Assembly: GCA_028712095.1 (NCBI GenBank) | Contig: JAQTQU010000001.1 | Location: forward strand, 1 to 60,563 | DNA: 60,563 nucleotides | Direction of reading: 5' to 3' | From: Candidatus Peribacteraceae bacterium | GTDB taxonomy: Bacteria; Patescibacteriota; Gracilibacteria; Peribacterales; Peribacteraceae | Shown: one piece after another, positions 2,339 through 13,808 of the stretch | How the letters are laid out: the number at the start of each line of letters is the position of its first letter | Numbering within the stretch: the stretch's first letter is position 1 | Made by a program: the position numbers and the translations under genes | The notes under the pieces: generated by a model | Database searches by the model: none | The model's input: the letters and a program-made list of their open reading frames with translations, nothing else | Told to the model about the DNA's origin: nothing

Positions 2339-5300
2339 CTACAACTTCTTCAACCTCGCCAAACGCACCGTCACGTCCGATCCGTCAATATCCACGGTGA
2401 CCGGGCTGCCGTCATTCTCCTGCAGCACAGCATGCGTTTCCTGCGCGATCACGTTGCCATGTTCCTGCAGAACGTCTTGCAGGCCGTCGATCTTGAGTGC
2501 GATGGAATCGGCGAAGTGCAACCCCGCATCCTTGCGGATTTTCTGCACTGCACGGATGAGATCGCGTGCGAGTCCTTCGCGCTTGAGCGCGGCGGTGACG
2601 GTTGTTTCCATGCTCACGACAATGCCCTTATCTGCAGCGATATCCGCTCCTTCGCGGCCGCGGTAGGTGATGGGCGCCTCGTCGGGGGCGAGCACTTCAT
2701 CCAGAATGAGCACGGCACCGTCCTCCCGCACGGTGAAGTCACCCGCCTTGCCGGCGCGGATGATCTCCTGCACGCGTGCGCCAAGTCGTGGGCCCGCCTT
2801 GCGCGCATCCACCTGCGCGAACGGCTGCGCCAGCGCTCCGGGATCGGCGGCAAATTCCAGATCTTTCACGTTCAATTCATTCTTGAGCAGGTCGCGGTCT
2901 TCTTCGGTAAGCGTGATTGTTGCGAGGGTCGGCGGCAGGGCGACCACGGCGCGAGCGAGCGGTTGGCGAACTTTGATCTTTTTTGCCCCGCGGATGCCGT
3001 GACCGAGCGAGACGATCAACCGAAGCAGACGATGGCGGTCGATGAGGGAACGTTCTTCATCGGTGAGTTGTTTGCAGTCCGGCCAGTCGGTCAGGTGCAC
3101 CGAGCCGTGATCCTCGGGCACCAGATTCACGTAAATCGCATCGGTGATGAAGGGGCAGAACGGGGCCAGCGTCTGGCAGACCGTGAGGAGCACGTCGTGG
3201 AGCGTTGCGAGCGCATCCGTCTGTTCGCCTTCGTGCGTCGAGAGCTCGGCCGATGGGCTCGTATCCTCCTCATCCACCGCGCCTTTGCCGGCAAAGCGGC
3301 GGCGGGAGAGGCGTACATACCAGTTCGTGAGCGCATCAATTGTTTCATGGATTTCACTGCAGGCGGCGGAAAGATCGTAGCGGTCGAGCTCCCGCGTGAT
3401 GCGGTTGACGAGATCCTGCACCTCGGCGCGGATGTATCGGTCCAGCGGATGACTGGAGTGGCGGCGGGTTTCCACCGGTTCGAACTTGGCGGCGTTCGCG
3501 TACGTTACGAAGAAGCTGTAGACATTCCACAACGGCAGCAGCACGGAACGCACGGTTTCCGAAACGAGTGTTTCGGAGAAGCGCAAATCCTCGCCCCGCA
3601 CGGCCGGCGAGCTCATCAGCGTGAAGCGCACGGCGTCCGCCCCGTGACGATGCACCACTTCGGTCGGCTCGGGATAATTCTTGAGGCGCTTGCTCATCTT
3701 CTTGCCGTCTTCGGCCAGCACGATGCCGTTGACGATACAGTTCAGGAATGCGGGTTTCTGGTAGAGGGCCGTCGACAGGATCATGAGGGTGTAGAACCAT
3801 CCGCGTGTCTGATCCATGCCCTCGGCGATGAAGTCGGCAGGGAAGCCGGGGGGGAAGGACTTGGGACTTGGGGCTTGGGACTTGAGACCTCGGGAGCGGT
3901 AAGCGAAGGGGAAGTGGCTCTGCGCGTACGGCATGGAGCCGGATTCGAACCAGCAATCCAGCACCTCGGGGATGCGTCGCATGAGGGCGGGCAGGCGCAG
4001 GTCCAGTGCTTCGGCGTTCCTGGCTTCAATGGCGGCCATTTCCGCCAGCGAGAGATTCTCGACCAGTGCCTGCAGGCATTTCATCGGTCCGCCGTGGCAG
4101 GCCACGAGCACGCGCTTGCCCGGATATTCCGCGCGGATACGTTGCAGGACTTTTTCCATGCGCTGCACGAATGCCTCAAAGCTTTCGCCACCTGGAGGAG
4201 TCTGCGGAGAAAATCCTGGGCTGGCGACTTCGCCACGGGGGAGCAGCGTCACATAGTCCTTGCCGGGCTTGCCGGTCCACTCGCCCGTGTCGCGTTCGTT
4301 CAGTTCTTTCCACTTGGCCGCATGCGGCACCTTCAGTTCCGCGCTGAGGATTTCGGCCGTTTCGACGGCGCGCTTCAGATCCGACGAAATGATGAGATCG
4401 AATTTCCGCTTCTTCAGTTTTTTGGATAGTGTCCGTACCTGTGCCCTCCCCGTCTCGTTGAGGAGCGAATCGATGTTACCGCCGTTCACGAGATTCTGCT
4501 TATTGAGGTCCGTTTCCCCGTGACGGACCAGTGTCAGTTGAATGTCGCTCTTCTGCTGCGATGCGCTCCACGTGATGTCATCCACGATGTGCTTGTGCAG
4601 GTCGAGTTGCGATTGCGTGCGATGATCCCAGAAGAAGGTCACGGGCTCGGCGTACCGCGGGTACGGCCGGTGATTCAGTTTCATGGGATCTTCCTGTGTG
4701 AAGAAGTGTTGGATGTTCTGCAGAGGATCGGCGTGCGTGACGATCACGATGTGGCCGCCGCGGTGCAGTGGGAGGATTTCTGCAAGGAACGCACTGATGC
4801 GCTCGTGCACGGCGCCAAATGTCTCCATGCCCGGAAAGTGGTAGATGCTCTCGGGCGTTTTCGTTTCGAGCTTGTGCGCCCTTCTCGCCTTGACGAAGGT
4901 TAAGTCCGAGAAATCGACGGTCTTACCCTCGTACTCCCCGAAGATCACTTCGTGCAGGCGCTCGTCCACGATCAGAGGCGCCCCTGTCTTCTTGGCGATG
5001 ATCGCCGCCGTTTCTTTCGTCCGGTCTAAGGGCGAGCAGTAGATGGCGGAGATTGCTCCGGCATTCAGGTAGTCCGCAGCGGACGCTGCTTGTTTCTTGC
5101 CCGTTGCCGTCAGGTGCGTGCCCGGACACGTGCCCTGATAGATCGGAATCAAATTGCCCTCGCTCTCGCCGTGCCGCAGCACCGATACCTTGGTGAAGCG
5201 AATTCTGTTCTGCGCCATCAGTTCATCGCGGCTTTCGATCACCGTCAGGTCCTTCGTTTCGTTGCAGCGCCAGATGGGGAGGGGAGTGCCCCAGTAACGG

Positions 5301-6760
5301 TTGCGGCTGATCGCCCAGTCACGCGCACCCTCCAGCCATTTGCCGAAGCGCCCGTCGCGCACGTGCGCGGGAACCCACGTGGTTTTGGCATTCGATGCGA
5401 GAATGTCATCCTTGATCTTGGTGACGTTCACGAACCACGAGCTCGTGGCGTAGTTGAGCAGGGGCGTTTCACACCGCCAGCAGTGCGGGTAGCTGTGGCG
5501 GATTGTTTCCCTGCGCCAGATGAGCCCTTTCTTGTGGAAATCCTCAATGAGCCGCTTCTCCCCGTCTTCCACGTACATACCGGCGTAGGGCCCGGCCTCC
5601 GCTCCGAAGTGGCCGTTCATCTGCACATCCATGACGATGGGAAGCTTGTTTTTCTTTGCCGCTTCCATGTCGATCTCGCCGTAGGAGCCGTTGATCGTCA
5701 CGATGCCGGTTCCCTCCGACGGATCCACGTAGTCTGCGGCGAAGATGTGGTAGACATGGGGATTTTTTTTCACTTCCGGAATCTCCGCGTACCAGTCCGC
5801 AATGTGTTCGTAGGATTTGCCGACCAGTTTTTTGCCGGGGAATTCATCAATGATTTCGTACTGTTCCGTCCCTTTCATCACTTCAGCAACGCGGCTTTTC
5901 ACCATGATGAGGTTTTCATTTCCTGTCCGGACACTCACGTACGTGGCATCCGGCTTGATGGAGAGCCCCATCGTGGAGAGCGTGCTCCACGGCGTGGTGG
6001 TCCAGGCGAGCACGAAGGTGTGCTTCTCGTCTTTGAGTTTGAACTTCCACGTGACGGCGGTGTCATTGATATCTTTGTATCCCTGCGTCACTTCGAAGTT
6101 GGCAAGGGGGGTTTCGCAGCGGGGACAGATCTGCATGGCTTTGCGGCCTTCATAGATCAGATCTTTCTCATGGAGCTCACTGAACACCCACCAGATCGAT
6201 TCCATGTACTCCGGGTCCATGGTGCGGTAGTCATGGTCCATGTCCACCCACCGGCCCATGCGTTCCACCACGGTCCGCCAATCCTTCGTGTAGCGCTGCA
6301 CCGATCCGCAACACAGGGCGTTGAACGCATCCACGCCCATCGCGTCGATCTGCTGATGGTTGGTGATGTTGTGCTCTTTTTCAATCAGATTCTCGACGGG
6401 CAGCCCGTGGCAGTCCCAGCCGAATCTCCTCTCCACGTATTTTCCCCGCATCGTCTGGTACCGGGGGATGACATCCTTGATCGTGCCGGCGAGCAGGTGC
6501 CCGTAGTGGGGCAGGCCCGTGGCGAAGGGCGGACCGTCGTAGAACGAAAATGTTTCCCCTTTGCCTCCCACGGGGCCATCCAGCAGATCGCCCGTCCCTT
6601 CCGAACGCAGTCTCAGGCTCCTCTTGAAGATATCCTCCTCCTGCCAGTAGCGGAGAATGCCCTCCTCGAGTTCGGGCAGCCGTTGCCTGGGGTCTACGGG
6701 GTCGAACACGTCAAAAGCGTACCACACTCTCCGGACTCCGTGCTGCCGGAAGGGCGGCAA
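2339..6760 (-). CDS. ileS: isoleucine--tRNA ligase with two inserted histidine-phosphatase domains
   Basis: 1473-aa ORF. Class I motifs present: PHYGHLL (HIGH), KMSKR (KMSKS), WAISRNRYWGTPLPIW, VLDCWFESGSMPY, GMDQTRGWFY. The ORF-track start at 6760 is TTG. An in-frame GTG at 6709 (MFDPVDPRQRLPELEEGILRYW) looks like the real start. Confidence 0.95.
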   Translation of the reverse strand: MPPFRQHGVRRVWYAFDVFDPVDPRQRLPELEEGILRYWQEEDIFKRSLRLRSEGTGDLLDGPVGGKGETFSFYDGPPFATGLPHYGHLLAGTIKDVIPRYQTMRGKYVERRFGWDCHGLPVENLIEKEHNITNHQQIDAMGVDAFNALCCGSVQRYTKDWRTVVERMGRWVDMDHDYRTMDPEYMESIWWVFSELHEKDLIYEGRKAMQICPRCETPLANFEVTQGYKDINDTAVTWKFKLKDEKHTFVLAWTTTPWSTLSTMGLSIKPDATYVSVRTGNENLIMVKSRVAEVMKGTEQYEIIDEFPGKKLVGKSYEHIADWYAEIPEVKKNPHVYHIFAADYVDPSEGTGIVTINGSYGEIDMEAAKKNKLPIVMDVQMNGHFGAEAGPYAGMYVEDGEKRLIEDFHKKGLIWRRETIRHSYPHCWRCETPLLNYATSSWFVNVTKIKDDILASNAKTTWVPAHVRDGRFGKWLEGARDWAISRNRYWGTPLPIWRCNETKDLTVIESRDELMAQNRIRFTKVSVLRHGESEGNLIPIYQGTCPGTHLTATGKKQAASAADYLNAGAISAIYCSPLDRTKETAAIIAKKTGAPLIVDERLHEVIFGEYEGKTVDFSDLTFVKARRAHKLETKTPESIYHFPGMETFGAVHERISAFLAEILPLHRGGHIVIVTHADPLQNIQHFFTQEDPMKLNHRPYPRYAEPVTFFWDHRTQSQLDLHKHIVDDITWSASQQKSDIQLTLVRHGETDLNKQNLVNGGNIDSLLNETGRAQVRTLSKKLKKRKFDLIISSDLKRAVETAEILSAELKVPHAAKWKELNERDTGEWTGKPGKDYVTLLPRGEVASPGFSPQTPPGGESFEAFVQRMEKVLQRIRAEYPGKRVLVACHGGPMKCLQALVENLSLAEMAAIEARNAEALDLRLPALMRRIPEVLDCWFESGSMPYAQSHFPFAYRSRGLKSQAPSPKSFPPGFPADFIAEGMDQTRGWFYTLMILSTALYQKPAFLNCIVNGIVLAEDGKKMSKRLKNYPEPTEVVHRHGADAVRFTLMSSPAVRGEDLRFSETLVSETVRSVLLPLWNVYSFFVTYANAAKFEPVETRRHSSHPLDRYIRAEVQDLVNRITRELDRYDLSAACSEIHETIDALTNWYVRLSRRRFAGKGAVDEEDTSPSAELSTHEGEQTDALATLHDVLLTVCQTLAPFCPFITDAIYVNLVPEDHGSVHLTDWPDCKQLTDEERSLIDRHRLLRLIVSLGHGIRGAKKIKVRQPLARAVVALPPTLATITLTEEDRDLLKNELNVKDLEFAADPGALAQPFAQVDARKAGPRLGARVQEIIRAGKAGDFTVREDGAVLILDEVLAPDEAPITYRGREGADIAADKGIVVSMETTVTAALKREGLARDLIRAVQKIRKDAGLHFADSIALKIDGLQDVLQEHGNVIAQETHAVLQENDGSPVTVDIDGSDVTVRLARLKKL

Positions 6761-9988: not shown

Positions 9989-12883
9989 TTAGGGACTGCG
10001 CTTTTTTGCCGTGTTCACGATGAGTGGCAGCGCTGCGCCCAATGCCACAATGGTGCCAGCCAGGAAGGTGAGGGATGCAACCTGATGCATGAAGATTGCC
10101 TGTCCGATGATGGTTGTGAAAATCAGCAGAAAAGAGAATCGCAAAACGAAATCAATTTCCCGATGGGAGAGGAGGTAGTAGTAGATGTAGTACGGAAGTC
10201 CCGCAAAGAAAATACTGAAGAGGATCATGCGTGCCATGACGGGTGCAGCGTACCGCAGCAGATGTGCCGAGGGCAGAAGAGGAAGGGCCAGGAGCGTGCA
10301 GAAGAACGAGAGGATGAAGAAGTACTGCGCAACGCGCACATCAACGTGTTCCAGTCGCTTGTACCGTTCACTGGCAATGGAGAACACCGTGAATGCCACA
10401 ATGGCGACGAAGGTGAAGAATATGTCAACGAGTGTCCAGGAAGGAGTCGAGAAAATCAGCAACAGGATACCGACGATGAAACATGCCCAGGCAGCAAGCA
10501 TGGTCTTCCAGCGCTTACGATTGACGATGGTCGTAAGCAGAAAACCCGAAGCCGTCATGGGGATGGTGTAGTGTGAGGGGAGTGTCCGTTCCAGTGAGGC
10601 ATAGGTGAAAATCGCAACGAAGAACAGAGAAATGACCGACAGCCAGAGTGTGCGGCTGCGCAGCGGGAGGGAGGCATAGCGCAGCGGCGAGTGCAGCCGT
10701 GCCCAGACCAGCAGCAGACTGCTCATTCCCAGGAGGGAAAAGAAGCGGATGATCGTGAGGTCGAGCGCGGCAATGTGATGCGTCTTCAGGAGCAGATGGG
10801 CGAAAATGGGGTCGAATCCCCAGAGGGCGAAAATCAAAATAACCGTGACCACCTGTCTTGCCACGGAGTAGGCGGGGACCACGCGTACATGCCCGGCACC
10901 CACGGCTCGCAATTCAGTGGCGATGAACTGCTGTTCCTCCGTGGAGAGGGCGAGACGCGCGATCATTTTCGCATGCTGGTTGATGGTGGGCAGGATCCGC
11001 ACATCCCCCAGCGTGACGCCGTACTTTTCCGCCAGAAAGACGAAGCGATTGAGCAGGTCGTGGATGGACATTGACGGAAGAGAGAAGTGCACCGAGCACA
11101 GAGTCTTCTCCGGTGAGAGATTGCCGCGCGAACGCGAGGACCGGAAAATGGCAGCAATGGCGACCGACGGTTGCAGATGGCCGTCGGCAACGGCGATGAA
11201 GGCTCCATCCAGCGAGGTATAGCCGAGGGTGCGGATACCCTTGAGCAGGCTCTCCTCTTTGAATTCCTTCAGGTACCCCCGCGCCTGTTTGGTCATGGCC
11301 TCCTGCAGAATCCTCTTGCCGTTTTCGATTTTCTGCTGGCGTGATGCGGATCCCAGCAGGGAACGGATTGCGGCGATTGCCACACCGGTATGCACCCACT
11401 CCAGCCACTCGCGCGTTACCGTGGGCTGGCTTGCAAGCTCCAGCGAGAGTGAGGCGGAGTCGGAGAGCGGAGAGAAGAATGGTGCATCTTTTCCGTTGAT
11501 TTTGATTGTTTTCGTTCTGAGAGCTTTTTCCTTATAGAGGTAGAACGCGCCGTCCAGTGCGGTTGCTCCGGTGGGGAGCTGGATGGTCGTATCATCCGGA
11601 CCATAAATGAAGATGGATTTACCGAGGATGTCGCTTTGCAGGCTGTCCCAGAATTCCTGGCTCTTGTCCGCCGTATCTTTGGAGAGCGGGGCGATACGTT
11701 CGGTCCATGGCAGGTACTCCATGATGCCGATTGCCTTTTTGTCGAAGCAGAACGTGACGATGCCCCGCTGGGCGTAGGCCTGCATTTCCTGCGTGCGGAT
11801 CTTGCAACGCACACGTGTGCCGTTTTCCAGGATGATGGTTGTGTGCAGGCCGCGGTAGCCGTTGATGGCGGGAGCGTTGATGAAATCCTTGAACGAGAGG
11901 ATTTCGTGCTGCCATTTCTGGTGCAGTACGCCCACGGTGGCATAGCACTGGGGGATGGAAGTGCAGACGAATGCGAAGGTCACATCCGAACGGTCGCTCT
12001 TGGTCTCCGTTTCTGTGTCCAGGCGTGCACGGAGATGATCCCATGATTTGCGTTCCACCCGCACGAGTACATCGGACGGCAGCGGCTCCGGTTCGTTGTA
12101 CAGTGCTTCGCGCATGGCATCCAACACCGTGGCGGCCTGCCGTTCGTTCCGGTCGCGCAGTTGTGTTAAGAGGGCGAAGGTCTCGGGCTCCAGCACGGCC
12201 ATACAGAGCGCTTCCAATTCGTCGCTCAGGTCATGCATGCTCATCCGCTCCGCGATTTTCACGTAGATGTCCATCGTCTCCTGTGCAAACGAGATCTGCC
12301 GGTCCTTTGCGAGAAATTCGACCGTGCGCATGTTGTGCAGACGATCGGCCAGCTTGATCACCATAATGCGCACGTCTTCCTGCATCAGCAGCACCATCTT
12401 GCGCAGGGATTCAATTTCCTCGTCGAGTGTGGGGTGTTGTCGCACCGCCTCGTCATCGAGCTTGGTCATGCCTCCGATCAGCGCCGCAGCCGTGTGGCCG
12501 AAACGCTGTTCGATCAGATCGAGGGTGAGATCGGTATCCTCCAATGCGTCGTGGAGGAGGGCGGCGACGAGTGAATCCACGCCTGCCCCCATTTCCGCGA
12601 TCAGGAGAGCAACAGCGATGGGGTGCGTGACGTAGGGCTCTCCGGACTTGCGCACCTGCCCTTCATGGGCGCTCAGGCACAGATCAAACGCACGGTGCAC
12701 GCGTTCACGGTCTGCAGGCGAGAGGTGCCGGAGGAAGGATTGGAATTCCTGCCACTGCATAGATGAAGGTACAGTGTACCCGCTTTTCTGGGCGAAGTGG
12801 AGCGCATTTTCCGCTCCGGAAAGGCGTTGCAGAGCGTTCTCTTCCTGTTCACGTTTTCCACTTGATACTGCACCCGATGGCAT
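9989..12883 (-). CDS. RelA/SpoT-homolog (HD hydrolase, synthetase-like, TGS, ACT-like) fused to a C-terminal 10-TM DMT/EamA-like domain
   Basis: Motifs: HEGQVRKSGEPYVTHP..LLHDALEDT, KLADRLHNMRT, GYRGLHTTI, KIRTQEM, and TGS-like IYGPDDTTIQLPTGATALDGAF. The last 288 aa (9992..10855) are 10 hydrophobic helices. The ATG at 12760 (MQWQEFQSFL) would avoid a 35-nt overlap with the upstream gene. Confidence 0.9.
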   Translation of the reverse strand: MPSGAVSSGKREQEENALQRLSGAENALHFAQKSGYTVPSSMQWQEFQSFLRHLSPADRERVHRAFDLCLSAHEGQVRKSGEPYVTHPIAVALLIAEMGAGVDSLVAALLHDALEDTDLTLDLIEQRFGHTAAALIGGMTKLDDEAVRQHPTLDEEIESLRKMVLLMQEDVRIMVIKLADRLHNMRTVEFLAKDRQISFAQETMDIYVKIAERMSMHDLSDELEALCMAVLEPETFALLTQLRDRNERQAATVLDAMREALYNEPEPLPSDVLVRVERKSWDHLRARLDTETETKSDRSDVTFAFVCTSIPQCYATVGVLHQKWQHEILSFKDFINAPAINGYRGLHTTIILENGTRVRCKIRTQEMQAYAQRGIVTFCFDKKAIGIMEYLPWTERIAPLSKDTADKSQEFWDSLQSDILGKSIFIYGPDDTTIQLPTGATALDGAFYLYKEKALRTKTIKINGKDAPFFSPLSDSASLSLELASQPTVTREWLEWVHTGVAIAAIRSLLGSASRQQKIENGKRILQEAMTKQARGYLKEFKEESLLKGIRTLGYTSLDGAFIAVADGHLQPSVAIAAIFRSSRSRGNLSPEKTLCSVHFSLPSMSIHDLLNRFVFLAEKYGVTLGDVRILPTINQHAKMIARLALSTEEQQFIATELRAVGAGHVRVVPAYSVARQVVTVILIFALWGFDPIFAHLLLKTHHIAALDLTIIRFFSLLGMSSLLLVWARLHSPLRYASLPLRSRTLWLSVISLFFVAIFTYASLERTLPSHYTIPMTASGFLLTTIVNRKRWKTMLAAWACFIVGILLLIFSTPSWTLVDIFFTFVAIVAFTVFSIASERYKRLEHVDVRVAQYFFILSFFCTLLALPLLPSAHLLRYAAPVMARMILFSIFFAGLPYYIYYYLLSHREIDFVLRFSFLLIFTTIIGQAIFMHQVASLTFLAGTIVALGAALPLIVNTAKKRSP

Positions 12884-13451: not shown

Positions 13452-13808
13452 TTAGCGAAGAGAACCCCGCAATTTAAAGAGCAAGTAACCTGTTCTCTGA
13501 ATTTTGTCGTGAAGTTGAGATAGTTTCTCCAGAGAAAGATAATGAAGATCGTGTGCCAGTAGGCACTGGTAATGCAGCTCCTCGACGGAGGCGTGCGCGA
13601 TTTCAAGAAAATGAGCACGATCGTTCTTCGAGCGTCGGCCATTTCCTTCTGCAATATTCATGGGAATGGAATATGCCGCACGTCGCATCTGACTCGTGAG
13701 TCCGTATTTTTCTTCAGGAGGAAAGGATTTTGTGGTCGCATACACCTCTAGGCACAAAGCATGCGCCTCTTTCCATGCCACCAGTTTTTGATAGGGGCGT
13801 TCTTCCAC
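13452..13808 (-). CDS. four-helix-bundle protein (23S rRNA intervening-sequence protein / Avd-like family)
   Basis: 118 aa. Family-typical YQKLVAWKEAHALCLEVYATTKSFPPEEKYGLTSQMRRAAYSIPMNIAEG. GTG start, preceded by TATACT and 9 nt. Confidence 0.9.
   Translation of the reverse strand: MEERPYQKLVAWKEAHALCLEVYATTKSFPPEEKYGLTSQMRRAAYSIPMNIAEGNGRRSKNDRAHFLEIAHASVEELHYQCLLAHDLHYLSLEKLSQLHDKIQRTGYLLFKLRGSLR

What the first reader, a model, noticed from the sequence alone, without database searches (positions are those of the whole stretch)
9989..12883. RelA/SpoT homolog fused to a 10-TM DMT/EamA-like membrane domain, with a degenerate-looking synthetase motif set
The N-terminal roughly 670 aa are a long RSH protein:
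- The HD hydrolase motifs are intact (HEGQ..GEPY..HP, LLHDALEDT, DRLHNMRT).
- TGS and ACT-like regions are present.

The last 288 aa (9992..10855) are ten hydrophobic helices in a 5+5 arrangement, reminiscent of EamA/DMT transporters. Long RSH enzymes are normally soluble and ribosome-associated.

In the synthetase region the usual EVQIRT reads RCKIRT, and the downstream AAHWxYK-like motif is absent (VTFCFDKK). The protein may therefore be hydrolase-only. A membrane-embedded (p)ppGpp hydrolase or sensor coupled to a metabolite-transporter fold would be an unusual signalling architecture.
Basis: partly seen in the sequence, partly recalled or inferred. Interest (0 to 1): 0.62.

Follow-up and report, generated by a model that had tools for sequence, protein, structure and literature searches.

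The report
Membrane-embedded ppGpp hydrolase fused to transporter
This gene of an uncultured Peribacteria-type bacterium joins an enzyme that should destroy the starvation alarmone (p)ppGpp, with a dead alarmone-making site, directly to a ten-helix transporter-type membrane domain, a design found across the lineage that I did not find described in print and that could link membrane transport or sensing to growth control.

Summary

**What the gene encodes**
- The ORF at 9989..12883 (-) probably starts at M42, nt 12760, giving 923 aa.
- It is a long RelA/SpoT homologue whose HD hydrolase motifs are invariant in about 120 homologues.
- Its synthetase site is degenerate across the family: the catalytic Glu is Arg in 117 of 120.
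- The TGS domain is weak, the Zn-finger domain is absent, and an ACT-like domain runs with two intervening residues into a 10-TM domain.

**The membrane domain**
- AlphaFold2 models it at pLDDT 94.5.
- Its top 35 PDB fold matches are all DMT transporters (TPT, SLC35B1, YddG, Vrg4, LicB).
- An exhaustive search of 1.84 billion proteins with this domain found 113 relatives. Almost all are the same roughly 920-aa fusions.

**Genome and lineage context**
- The genome also holds two synthetase-only long RSH paralogues and one small alarmone hydrolase.
- Relatives include a soluble 645-aa form and an 1100-aa form with extra helices.

**Interpretation**
- Best reading: a membrane-integral, hydrolase-only RSH, analogous to SpoT[Hs], whose hydrolase is controlled by the DMT domain.
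- The control step is inferred, not shown.
- I found no published description.
- Verdict: a new variant of a known kind.

The parts
9989..12760 (-). Probable CDS of the RSH-DMT fusion: 923 aa from M42, stop codon included. The longest ORF extends to 12883.
   Evidence: Homologues start at MQW.., the database gene call is 923 aa, and the upstream gene ends at 12849.
12242..12691 (-). HD (p)ppGpp-hydrolase domain, residues 65-214, with all catalytic and metal-binding motifs intact.
   Evidence: Pfam HD_4 E 2e-37, and a genome scan places it at the same coordinates. H73, R78, H87, H111, D112, E115, D116, D180, H183 and N184 are each conserved in 118-120 of 120 homologues.
11759..12049 (-). Pseudo-synthetase (RelA_SpoT fold), residues 279-375, with a degenerate active site.
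   Evidence: - Pfam RelA_SpoT scores 50.9 bits, against 127 and 109 bits for the two paralogues.
- Position 359 aligns to the catalytic Glu of EVQIRT in Rel structures. It is Arg in 117 of 120 homologues.
- The following Gln is Lys in 119 of 120.
- The first Arg of the RxK ATP motif is Glu in 108 of 120.
- The Asp of the DxxxxR motif is variable.
- AAHWxYK is replaced by xxCFD.
11447..11614 (-). TGS-like beta-rich segment, residues 424-479.
   Evidence: Pfam TGS E 0.1, 13.1 bits, below the 22.2 cut-off. The AF2 full-length model shows beta strands here. The His of the DFAYxIH motif is Tyr, read from the sequence.
11132..11395 (-). Alpha-helical (AH) domain, residues 497-584. No Zn-finger/RIS domain follows it.
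   Evidence: Pfam RelA_AH_RIS matches only profile positions 4-87 of 185. The AF2 model shows helices and then goes straight to the ACT-like fold.
10874..11104 (-). ACT/RRM-like beta-alpha-beta-beta-alpha-beta domain, residues about 594-670. It is the least conserved part.
   Evidence: AF2 secondary structure in M42 numbering: E553-562, H566-580, E587-591, E596-605, H607-619, E623-629. Mean top-residue frequency is 0.29. There is no Pfam hit in this protein, whereas ACT_4 is detected in the soluble relative.
9998..10867 (-). Ten-helix DMT-fold membrane domain, residues about 673-962. It starts two residues after the last ACT strand.
   Evidence: - AF2 pLDDT 94.5, pTM 0.91.
- Foldseek top 35 hits are all DMT transporters.
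- The residues most conserved across all subtypes are P692, Y761 and R850 (100%), D691, Y772, P897 and Y898 (99%), R713 (93%) and T924 (92%).
- K+R counts are 17 inside and 3 outside.

Best explanation
The gene encodes a membrane-integral, hydrolase-only long RelA/SpoT homologue.

**Proposed mechanism**
- The cytoplasmic N-terminal part degrades (p)ppGpp, using an intact Mn-dependent HD site.
- The alarmone is made by the two synthetase-only long RSH paralogues encoded elsewhere in the genome.
- Its own synthetase domain is a non-catalytic pseudo-SYNTH. It is kept under selection as a structural or allosteric module. The guanine-binding G-loop NGYxGLHTT is retained, while the ATP/Mg catalytic residues are lost.
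- The ribosome-sensing C-terminal apparatus is reduced: TGS is weak and the Zn-finger domain is absent.
- The ACT/RRM-like domain is welded to helix 1 of a 10-TM DMT-fold domain.
- I infer that the conformational or ligand state of the DMT domain is passed through the ACT-like domain to the hydrolase. That state could be substrate binding or transport, or membrane status.
- Alarmone breakdown would then follow what the cell senses or moves at its membrane.

**Shown by computation**
- The architecture, the DMT fold and the topology.
- The motif status of both catalytic sites.
- Conservation across the lineage.
- The division of labour among paralogues.

**Inferred, not shown**
- Hydrolase activity and lack of synthetase activity.
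- That the DMT domain regulates the hydrolase.
For: **Hydrolase intact, synthetase degenerate**
- HD motifs are invariant in 120 homologues, while synthetase catalytic positions are replaced family-wide.
- Positions were mapped through alignments to Rel structures 8FR8, 6YXA, 5XNX and 1VJ7.
- The N-terminal half of the full-length model superposes on RelSeq/Rel NTD structures at TM-score 0.83-0.87.

**Paralogues supply the synthetase**
- The two paralogues have intact EVQIRT/EIQIRA, RxK and DxxxxR motifs.
- Their HD motifs are degenerate: LLHHALDNG in one, AHRLNDVRH in the other.
- Across 41 genomes of the family, all have one or more strong synthetase-type hits (108-140 bits; one genome had only a 34-bit hit). 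Most also have one weak hit (34-71 bits) in a frame of about 920 aa.

**Membrane domain**
- The DMT fold is confirmed.
- The domain has near-invariant residues, including charged ones, in or at its helices: D691, R713, R850.
- It is as conserved overall as the AH domain.
- It is found almost only in this fusion among 1.84 billion representative proteins.
- Only two residues separate the last ACT strand from TM1, and full-length pTM is 0.76.

**Precedent**
- In the hydrolase-only A. baumannii SpoT, the pseudo-SYNTH, ZFD and RRM domains tune HD activity allosterically (PMC9974481, read).
Against: - No activity was measured. The hydrolase, the lack of synthetase and any ligand of the DMT domain are all predictions.
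- The ACT-like domain, the proposed relay, is the least conserved part (top-residue frequency 0.29).
- The full-length model does not reproduce the compact tau-state of A. baumannii SpoT (TM-score 0.41, rmsd 23 A to 7QPR). I had no access to coordinates or PAE to inspect interfaces.
- A soluble 645-aa hydrolase-only form exists in a related genome. The membrane domain is therefore dispensable for the basic function.
- A separate SAH-like hydrolase exists in this genome. This protein is therefore not necessarily the main alarmone hydrolase.
- D300, the equivalent of the Mg-binding Asp, is retained in this particular protein, though in only 38 of 120 relatives.
Confidence: 0.6

Rival explanations
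1. Reverse wiring. The DMT domain is an active transporter and is the output. The RSH part is its regulatory and sensing module, so that (p)ppGpp binding or hydrolysis at the HD site, or guanine-nucleotide binding at the pseudo-SYNTH G-loop, gates metabolite import or export during starvation.
For: - The 10-TM DMT fold is complete and modelled with high confidence.
- Near-invariant polar and charged residues lie in or at its helices.
- The G-loop NGYxGLHTT is retained in the pseudo-SYNTH.
- DMT identity is bimodal (40-53% versus 21-32%) while the N-terminal part stays 45-55% identical. This is what changing substrate specificities on a constant regulator would look like.
Against: - The HD catalytic residues are invariant. 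This argues for a working enzyme, not only a binding module.
- The genome already has two canonical stand-alone EamA transporters.
- This DMT clade scores E = 7 against Pfam EamA. It has no detectable free-standing relatives except one marginal hit, so transport activity is not assured.
Confidence: 0.17
2. Passive anchor. The DMT-derived domain has lost transport and ligand binding. It only tethers the hydrolase to the membrane, for example to localise alarmone turnover or to keep it away from ribosomes.
For: - The domain is very divergent from EamA.
- The internal repeat is not detectable by sequence.
- A soluble form exists in a relative.
- The ACT linker domain is poorly conserved.
Against: - Ten helices with near-invariant D691, P692, R713, Y761, Y772, R850, P897/Y898 and T924 are maintained over more than 100 clusters at 50% identity. 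That is far more than an anchor needs.
- Another variant in the family adds about four more helices in front of a Pfam-detectable EamA domain. This suggests selection for a DMT module as such.
Confidence: 0.13
3. Transport-coupled processing. The DMT domain moves a phosphorylated nucleotide across the membrane, and the attached HD domain acts on it at the membrane. The nucleotide could be (p)ppGpp, its products, or guanine nucleotides.
For: The best structural matches include carriers of phosphorylated and nucleotide substrates: TPT 5Y78, the ATP/ADP carrier SLC35B1 9I20, the GDP-mannose transporter Vrg4, and the CMP-sialic acid transporter. In relatives, a NUDIX hydrolase gene lies directly upstream in the same orientation.
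Against: - TM-scores are similar (0.53-0.70) for all DMT structures, including the amino-acid exporter YddG and the choline importer LicB. The ranking therefore says nothing firm about substrate.
- No basic cluster like the phosphate site of TPT was demonstrated here.
- The published Peribacteria genomes encode essentially complete nucleotide synthesis (PMC4736985).
Confidence: 0.06
4. The protein is still bifunctional. The altered synthetase site (RCKIRT, CFD) is an unusual but active (p)ppGpp or (p)ppApp synthetase.
For: The SYNTH fold, the G-loop and, in this protein, D300 are retained. The domain is well conserved (top-residue frequency 0.66).
Against: - The catalytic Glu is Arg in 117 of 120.
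- The ATP-phosphate Arg is Glu in 108 of 120.
- The Arg of DxxxxR is Val/Ala.
- D300 is variable across the family.
- AAHWxYK is lost.
- Comparable losses define the experimentally synthetase-dead A. baumannii SpoT (PMC9974481).
- Two paralogues with intact sites are present.
Confidence: 0.03
5. Assembly or sequencing artefact joining an RSH gene to an adjacent transporter gene.
For: None was found. Reads could not be inspected.
Against: The same continuous frame occurs in more than 120 homologues from independent assemblies and in all related genomes carrying the domain. Short database entries are contig-end fragments that still carry the ACT end.
Confidence: 0.01

Closest known systems
SpoT[Hs], the monofunctional long-RSH hydrolase of Moraxellaceae (A. 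baumannii SpoT, PDB 7QPR; PMC9974481)
   Same: - Long RSH with an intact HD site and a retained but catalytically degenerate pseudo-SYNTH.
- Partnered with a separate synthetase-only long RSH.
- 7QPR is the best full-length Foldseek hit (E 2.5e-31).
   Different: - Different phylum and not an orthologue. The NCBIfam SpoT equivalog scores 285 bits against a cut-off of 947.
- No Zn-finger domain, a weak TGS, and a 10-TM DMT domain added at the C-terminus.
- The predicted global arrangement does not match the tau-state (TM-score 0.41).
- The substituted residues differ. Here they give RCKIRT and CFD, with new invariant Cys at 360 and 379.
RelA/SpoT division of labour in Beta- and Gammaproteobacteria (Atkinson et al. 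2011, PMC3153485)
   Same: Paralogous long RSHs have subfunctionalised into synthetase-only forms (degenerate HD) and a hydrolase-carrying form.
   Different: - This instance lies outside the Beta/Gammaproteobacteria, in a Peregrinibacteria/Peribacteraceae lineage. No phylogeny was built to establish that it arose independently.
- There are two synthetase-only paralogues plus a small alarmone hydrolase in a 1.25-Mb genome.
- The hydrolase form is membrane-embedded.
DMT (drug/metabolite transporter, EamA-type) superfamily: YddG 5I20, TPT 5Y78, SLC35B1 9I20, Vrg4, LicB 7PAF
   Same: Ten-helix fold with N-in/C-in topology. Full-length structural alignment gives TM-scores of 0.6-0.7.
   Different: - Sequence identity is 7-16%.
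- There is no significant Pfam EamA hit for this protein.
- This clade occurs almost only fused to an RSH.
- Transport is unproven.
Plant/algal Rsh4 (CRSH) with a C-terminal EF-hand (Atkinson et al. 2011)
   Same: A long RSH whose C-terminal regulatory region has acquired a foreign sensor domain.
   Different: The sensor there is a soluble Ca-binding EF-hand on a synthetase-competent enzyme. Here it is a polytopic membrane domain on a hydrolase-only enzyme.
Membrane-anchored second-messenger phosphodiesterases such as GdpP (c-di-AMP) or TM-sensor EAL/HD-GYP proteins (from my own knowledge, not tested here)
   Same: A nucleotide-messenger-degrading enzyme tethered to membrane-embedded sensor helices.
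   Different: The enzyme families and the messenger differ. None uses a complete DMT transporter fold, and none belongs to the RSH superfamily.

Membership tests
Long RSH (RelA/SpoT homologue superfamily) | N-terminal HD_4 hydrolase-type domain | tested here: met
   Pfam HD_4 128.6 bits against a cut-off of 27.2.
Long RSH (RelA/SpoT homologue superfamily) | RelA_SpoT (SYNTH) fold following the HD domain | tested here: met
   Pfam RelA_SpoT 50.9 bits against a cut-off of 27. The N-terminal half superposes on RelSeq/Rel NTD structures at TM-score 0.83-0.87.
Long RSH (RelA/SpoT homologue superfamily) | C-terminal regulatory TGS, helical, Zn-finger (RIS) and ACT/RRM domains | tested here: inconclusive
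   - TGS scores 13.1 bits, below the 22.2 cut-off.
- Only the helical half of RelA_AH_RIS is matched, and there is no room for a ZFD.
- The ACT-like fold is seen only in the AF2 secondary structure.
NCBIfam TIGR00691 spoT_relA / NF008303 SpoT equivalog | Score above the curated whole-protein cut-off | tested here: not met
   TIGR00691 scores 355.8 against 499.2. NF008303 scores 285.2 against 947. NF008124 (RelA) scores 165.3 against 728.
Hydrolase-only long RSH (SpoT[Hs]-type, functional class) | HD metal-binding and catalytic residues intact | tested here: met
   H87, H111, D112, E115, D116, D180 and N184 are present here and conserved in 118-120 of 120 homologues. They map to RelSeq H53, H77, D78, E81, D82, D144 and N148 by the 1VJ7 alignment offsets. 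The RelSeq residue roles are from my own knowledge.
Hydrolase-only long RSH (SpoT[Hs]-type, functional class) | Residues critical for synthesis lost | tested here: met
   The Glu of EVQIRT is Arg in 117 of 120, and the first Arg of the RxK motif is Glu in 108 of 120. The Arg of DxxxxR is Val/Ala, and AAHWxYK is lost.
Hydrolase-only long RSH (SpoT[Hs]-type, functional class) | Measured (p)ppGpp hydrolysis and absence of synthesis | not testable with these tools
   Needs enzyme assays or complementation in E. coli laboratory strains.
Hydrolase-only long RSH (SpoT[Hs]-type, functional class) | Orthology with Moraxellaceae SpoT | tested here: not met
   It is found only in a Patescibacteria class, and the SpoT equivalog score is far below its cut-off.
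DMT superfamily (EamA-like) | Ten transmembrane helices with both termini in the cytoplasm | tested here: met
   The AF2 model shows ten helices. K+R counts are 17 cytoplasmic and 3 outside.
DMT superfamily (EamA-like) | Fold match to solved DMT structures | tested here: met
   The top 35 Foldseek PDB hits are all DMT transporters. E-values reach 5e-6 and TM-scores reach 0.70 over about 300 columns. The next hits have probability below 0.2.
DMT superfamily (EamA-like) | Significant match to the Pfam EamA profile (two copies) | tested here: not met
   E = 7, 7.3 bits, for this protein. Eleven of the 120 listed homologues carry a precomputed PF00892 hit.
DMT superfamily (EamA-like) | Internal 5+5 duplication detectable by sequence | tested here: not met
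   hhalign of family profiles of the two halves gives probability 1.2%.
DMT superfamily (EamA-like) | Transport of a substrate | not testable with these tools
   Needs reconstitution and transport or binding assays.

The most novel reading that the evidence does not exclude
The DMT half is a working carrier for a phosphorylated nucleotide, and the fused HD domain hydrolyses or senses that cargo at the membrane. The cargo could be (p)ppGpp itself, or guanine nucleotides exchanged with the environment or a partner cell. This would be a transport-coupled alarmone hydrolase, allowing a reduced-genome bacterium to read or clear alarmone across its membrane.
Probability: 0.07. Interest if true: 0.9.

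Novelty: new variant of a known kind. Interest (0 to 1): 0.64.

Why it matters
**Departure from the textbook picture**
- Long RSH enzymes are usually described as soluble and ribosome-associated. How their hydrolase activity is controlled is the less understood half of the stringent response.
- Here a whole lineage with 1.0-1.5-Mb genomes has hard-wired its long-RSH hydrolase to a complete transporter-fold membrane domain.
- The same lineage keeps separate synthetase-only paralogues.

**What it would offer if the membrane domain controls the hydrolase**
- A natural, genetically compact example of nutrient or membrane status being converted directly into alarmone breakdown.
- A second case, outside the Proteobacteria, of the hydrolase-only/synthetase-only split known from Moraxellaceae.
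- A DMT clade that appears to exist only as a signalling module.

**Practical consequence for annotation**
- Public annotation is currently 'HD domain-containing protein', 'hypothetical protein' or 'GTP pyrophosphokinase'.
- The last name is probably wrong for this family.

Tried and rejected
**Pfam and NCBIfam on the C-terminal part**
- No significant family was found (EamA E = 7). The fold had to be tested by structure prediction instead.

**Internal repeat of the DMT domain**
- hhalign between profiles of the two halves detected no repeat.

**Read-level check of the junction**

**Rfam scan of the window**
- It was run to look for a riboswitch near the gene. Only two tRNAs were found.

**Literature searches and papers read**
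- Searches:
  - No paper describes an RSH-DMT/EamA fusion.
  - 'RelA_SpoT' together with 'EamA' occurs in no held paper.
- Papers read:
  - The main texts of the two RSH classification papers contain no 'transmembrane'.
  - The Peribacteria genome paper does not mention ppGpp.
- The library is incomplete, so absence is not proof.

**Full-length model against the SpoT tau-state**
- 7QPR is the best hit by E-value, but the global TM-score is only 0.41. I do not claim a tau-state.
- Model coordinates and PAE were not available to me, so inter-domain contacts and the three-dimensional position of the conserved residues could not be inspected.

**Ideas dropped**
- 'Sole alarmone hydrolase of the genome' was dropped after finding an SAH-like gene with intact motifs.
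- 'Always fused' was dropped after finding a soluble 645-aa form and an 1100-aa form in the same family.

**Failed tool call**


Full report
**1. The observation**

The window holds one open frame, 9989..12883 on the minus strand, 964 aa. The real start is probably M42, at nt 12760. Three things point to this:
- The upstream AhpC/TSA gene ends at 12849, inside the longer ORF.
- All homologues begin MQW(Q/N)EF.
- The database gene call for this very protein is 923 aa.

Pfam finds the following:
- HD_4 at residues 65-214, E 2e-37.
- RelA_SpoT at residues 279-375, E 2e-13.
- The helical half of RelA_AH_RIS at residues 497-584.
- A sub-threshold TGS, E 0.1.

NCBIfam places the protein in the spoT_relA subfamily but below every curated cut-off.

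Hydropathy analysis shows about ten hydrophobic segments from residue 674 to 960.

**2. The fusion is not an artefact**

- A homology search returned more than 120 proteins of 895-965 aa at 39-85% identity, covering about 95% of the query.
- They come from NCBI, JGI, ENA and Logan assemblies. Where named, they are named Candidatus Peribacteraceae, Peregrinibacteria or Patescibacteria, apart from one record labelled Kiritimatiellales.
- One JGI name reads '(p)ppGpp synthase/HD superfamily hydrolase/drug/metabolite transporter (DMT)-like permease'.
- tblastn of the membrane domain alone against 151 genomes of the same class hit 16 genomes. Twelve of the 16 sampled genomes of the same family matched, as did four genomes in three other families. 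Every hit lay in an open frame of 700-1047 aa.
- In 301 genomes sampled across the phylum, only the five same-family genomes matched.

**3. Catalytic sites**

I aligned 120 homologues together with the two paralogues from the same genome. Positions were mapped through phmmer alignments to Rel structures 8FR8, 6YXA, 5XNX and 1VJ7.

Hydrolase side:
- H73, R78, H87, H111, D112, E115, D116, D180, H183, N184 and T187 are conserved in 118-120 of 120 sequences.

Synthetase side:

| Canonical feature | State in the family |
|---|---|
| Catalytic Glu of EVQIRT (B. subtilis Rel E324, RelSeq E323) | Arg in 117/120 |
| Following Gln | Lys in 119/120 |
| First Arg of the RxKxxxSxxxK ATP motif | Glu in 108/120 |
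| Mg-binding Asp of DxxxxR | Variable (Asp in 38/120; present in this protein as D300) |
| Arg of DxxxxR | Val/Ala |
| AAHWxYK | Replaced by xxCFD |

- The G-loop FxDFINxPxINGYxGLHTT is kept.
- New invariant residues have appeared: C360, Y370, C379 and F380.
- The domain is nearly as conserved as the HD domain (top-residue frequency 0.66 against 0.73).
- This is the signature of a selected pseudo-enzyme domain. It matches what was described experimentally for the hydrolase-only SpoT of A. baumannii (PMC9974481).

**4. The rest of the alarmone toolkit**

The genome is 1.25 Mb in 67 contigs and 97.7% complete. It carries the following:
- **Paralogue on contig C54, 634 aa.** It has LLHHALDNG and DRAAILRM in place of the HD motifs. 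It has intact EVQIRT and AAHWAYK, a strong TGS (E 3e-21) and a Cys-rich Zn-finger segment.
- **Paralogue on contig C36, 532 aa.** It also has degenerate HD motifs and an intact synthetase site (EIQIRA).
- **A 218-aa SAH-like protein** with intact HD motifs.
- **Two ordinary stand-alone EamA transporters**.

Across 41 genomes of the family:
- Every genome has one or more strong synthetase-type hits (108-140 bits; one genome had only a 34-bit hit).
- Most also have one weak hit of 34-71 bits in a frame of about 920 aa.

The split into synthetase-only and hydrolase-only long RSHs is therefore a trait of the lineage.

**5. The membrane domain**

Structure:
- AlphaFold2, run with a 113-sequence alignment, gives pLDDT 94.5 and pTM 0.91, with ten helices. 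Helices 4 and 9 are kinked.
- The top 35 Foldseek PDB hits are all DMT-superfamily transporters. They include the triose-phosphate translocator 5Y78 (E 5e-6, TM 0.70), the ATP/ADP carrier SLC35B1, YddG, Vrg4, LicB and the CMP-sialic acid transporter. After these, the probability falls below 0.2.

Topology:
- K+R counts are 17 cytoplasmic and 3 outside.

Sequence divergence:
- Pfam EamA scores E = 7 for this protein.
- The two halves show no detectable sequence repeat.
- An exhaustive phmmer search of 1.84 billion representative proteins found only 113 hits.
  - Almost all are 860-965 aa, with the match at residues about 620-920.
  - The short hits I inspected are fragments that still carry the end of the ACT domain.
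  - Only one marginal generic EamA protein appeared.
- This is therefore a DMT clade that exists essentially only as the tail of an RSH.

Conserved residues across all subtypes:
- D691 and P692, mid helix 1.
- R713, helix 2.
- Y761 and Y772.
- R850, at the cytoplasmic start of helix 7.
- P897 and Y898.
- T924.

**6. Whole-protein model**

- The full-length model has pLDDT 90.3 and pTM 0.76.
- The last strand of the ACT-like beta-alpha-beta-beta-alpha-beta fold ends two residues before helix 1 of the DMT domain.
- No Zn-finger domain lies between the helical domain and the ACT-like domain.
- The best full-length PDB hit is A. baumannii SpoT 7QPR (E 2.5e-31), but the global TM-score is only 0.41.
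- The N-terminal half superposes on RelSeq/Rel NTD structures at TM-score 0.83-0.87.
- I could not inspect contacts, because no coordinates were available.

**7. Variation within the family**

- Identity of the DMT domain to the query is bimodal: 40-53% or 21-32%. The N-terminal part stays 45-55% identical.
- Examples: P0010 is 69% identical in the N-terminal part and 23% in the DMT domain. P0079 is 61% and 21%.
- This suggests several DMT subtypes, or domain exchange.
- Related genomes also carry other forms:
  - A form of 1096-1101 aa with about four extra helices before a Pfam-detectable EamA domain.
  - A soluble 645-aa form with intact HD, VRLRIQT, TGS and ACT_4, and no membrane part.
- These are 29-31% identical to the query over the cytoplasmic part.
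- The query's own synthetase paralogue is 25% identical.

**8. Gene neighbourhood**

- The gene order is conserved in relatives at about 45% protein identity:
  1. UvrA
  2. Metallophos (present in the relatives only)
  3. AhpC/TSA
  4. NUDIX
  5. RSH-DMT
  6. a convergent hypothetical gene of about 360 aa
  7. Peptidase_M20
  8. IleRS
- In the window the NUDIX gene is absent from that position. A 23S_rRNA_IVP gene lies between UvrA and AhpC/TSA.
- No Rfam element lies near the gene.

**9. Interpretation**

Shown by computation:
- The architecture, the fold and the topology.
- Family-wide retention of the hydrolase site and loss of the synthetase site.
- Lineage-wide conservation.
- Complementary paralogues.

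Inferred:
- The protein is a hydrolase-only RSH anchored in the membrane.
- The DMT domain, through the directly attached ACT-like domain, modulates hydrolysis.
- The analogy is the way the CTD and pseudo-SYNTH tune the HD domain in A. baumannii SpoT.
- The published Peribacteria genomes have few amino-acid biosynthesis genes. They are inferred to depend on external amino acids (PMC4736985). A membrane-level nutrient input into alarmone turnover is therefore plausible, but it is untested.

Rivals are scored in their own section:
- Reverse wiring.
- Passive anchor.
- Transport-coupled processing.
- Residual synthetase activity.
- Assembly artefact.

**10. Novelty**

- I found no paper describing an RSH fused to a DMT/EamA domain.
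  - Literature searches.
  - Papers read.
- The library is incomplete.
- Earlier notes of this scan report the same architecture in other Peribacteria genomes, and one follow-up reached the same reading. I treat these as leads, and I re-derived each point here.
- Verdict: a new variant of a known kind. It is a hydrolase-only long RSH with a new membrane module.

Noticed in passing
window 2339..6760 (-): The isoleucyl-tRNA synthetase is 1473 aa. It carries a histidine-phosphatase domain (His_Phos_1, E 6e-81, two stretches, best at residues 742-917) inserted between the two halves of the class-I catalytic domain. The same insertion is in the IleRS of relatives (1442 and 1445 aa).
   Followed up: partly
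L007 5575..5964 and L008 5324..5941 (relatives); absent at the equivalent spot in the window: In relatives a NUDIX hydrolase gene lies directly upstream of the RSH-DMT gene, in the same orientation, with a 36-59 nt gap. Some NUDIX enzymes degrade (p)ppGpp in E. coli (PMC7593582, title and abstract only). In the window a 23S_rRNA_IVP gene (13452..13808) lies between UvrA and AhpC/TSA, and no NUDIX gene is there.
   Followed up: no
G000 contig C34 (L009 371..1027, -): A 218-aa small-alarmone-hydrolase-like protein with intact HD motifs (HAGQKR..SHP, LLHDTVEDG, DRLHNLET). It is a second predicted alarmone hydrolase in the same 1.25-Mb genome.
   Followed up: partly
G000 contigs C54 (L001 766..2670) and C36 (L002 643..2241): Two long RSH paralogues with degenerate HD motifs and intact synthetase motifs. 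The C54 protein keeps a strong TGS and a Cys-rich Zn-finger segment but ends without an ACT domain.
   Followed up: partly
L004 669..3959 (-) and L006 1113..4418 (+): Related genomes carry a 1096-1101-aa variant: HD, degenerate SYNTH (EFRLRT or QLRIRT), TGS, then about four extra hydrophobic helices and a Pfam-detectable EamA domain. This is a second kind of RSH-membrane fusion in the same family.
   Followed up: partly
L005 375..2312 (-): A related genome (99% complete, 4 contigs) has a soluble 645-aa hydrolase-only form (intact HD, VRLRIQT, TGS, ACT_4) and no match to the DMT domain.
   Followed up: partly
window residues C360 and C379 of the ORF (nt about 11804-11806 and 11747-11749): Two cysteines that are absent from canonical Rel enzymes are invariant in the pseudo-synthetase: RCKIRT 120/120 and xxCFD 118/120. 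A peroxiredoxin-type AhpC/TSA gene is a conserved neighbour. A redox or metal role is conceivable but was not tested.
   Followed up: no
G092:C1:229665-230555 (-): One same-family genome shows a single in-frame TGA inside its 924-aa RSH-DMT frame. It could be a sequencing error or a recoding event. It was not examined.
   Followed up: no
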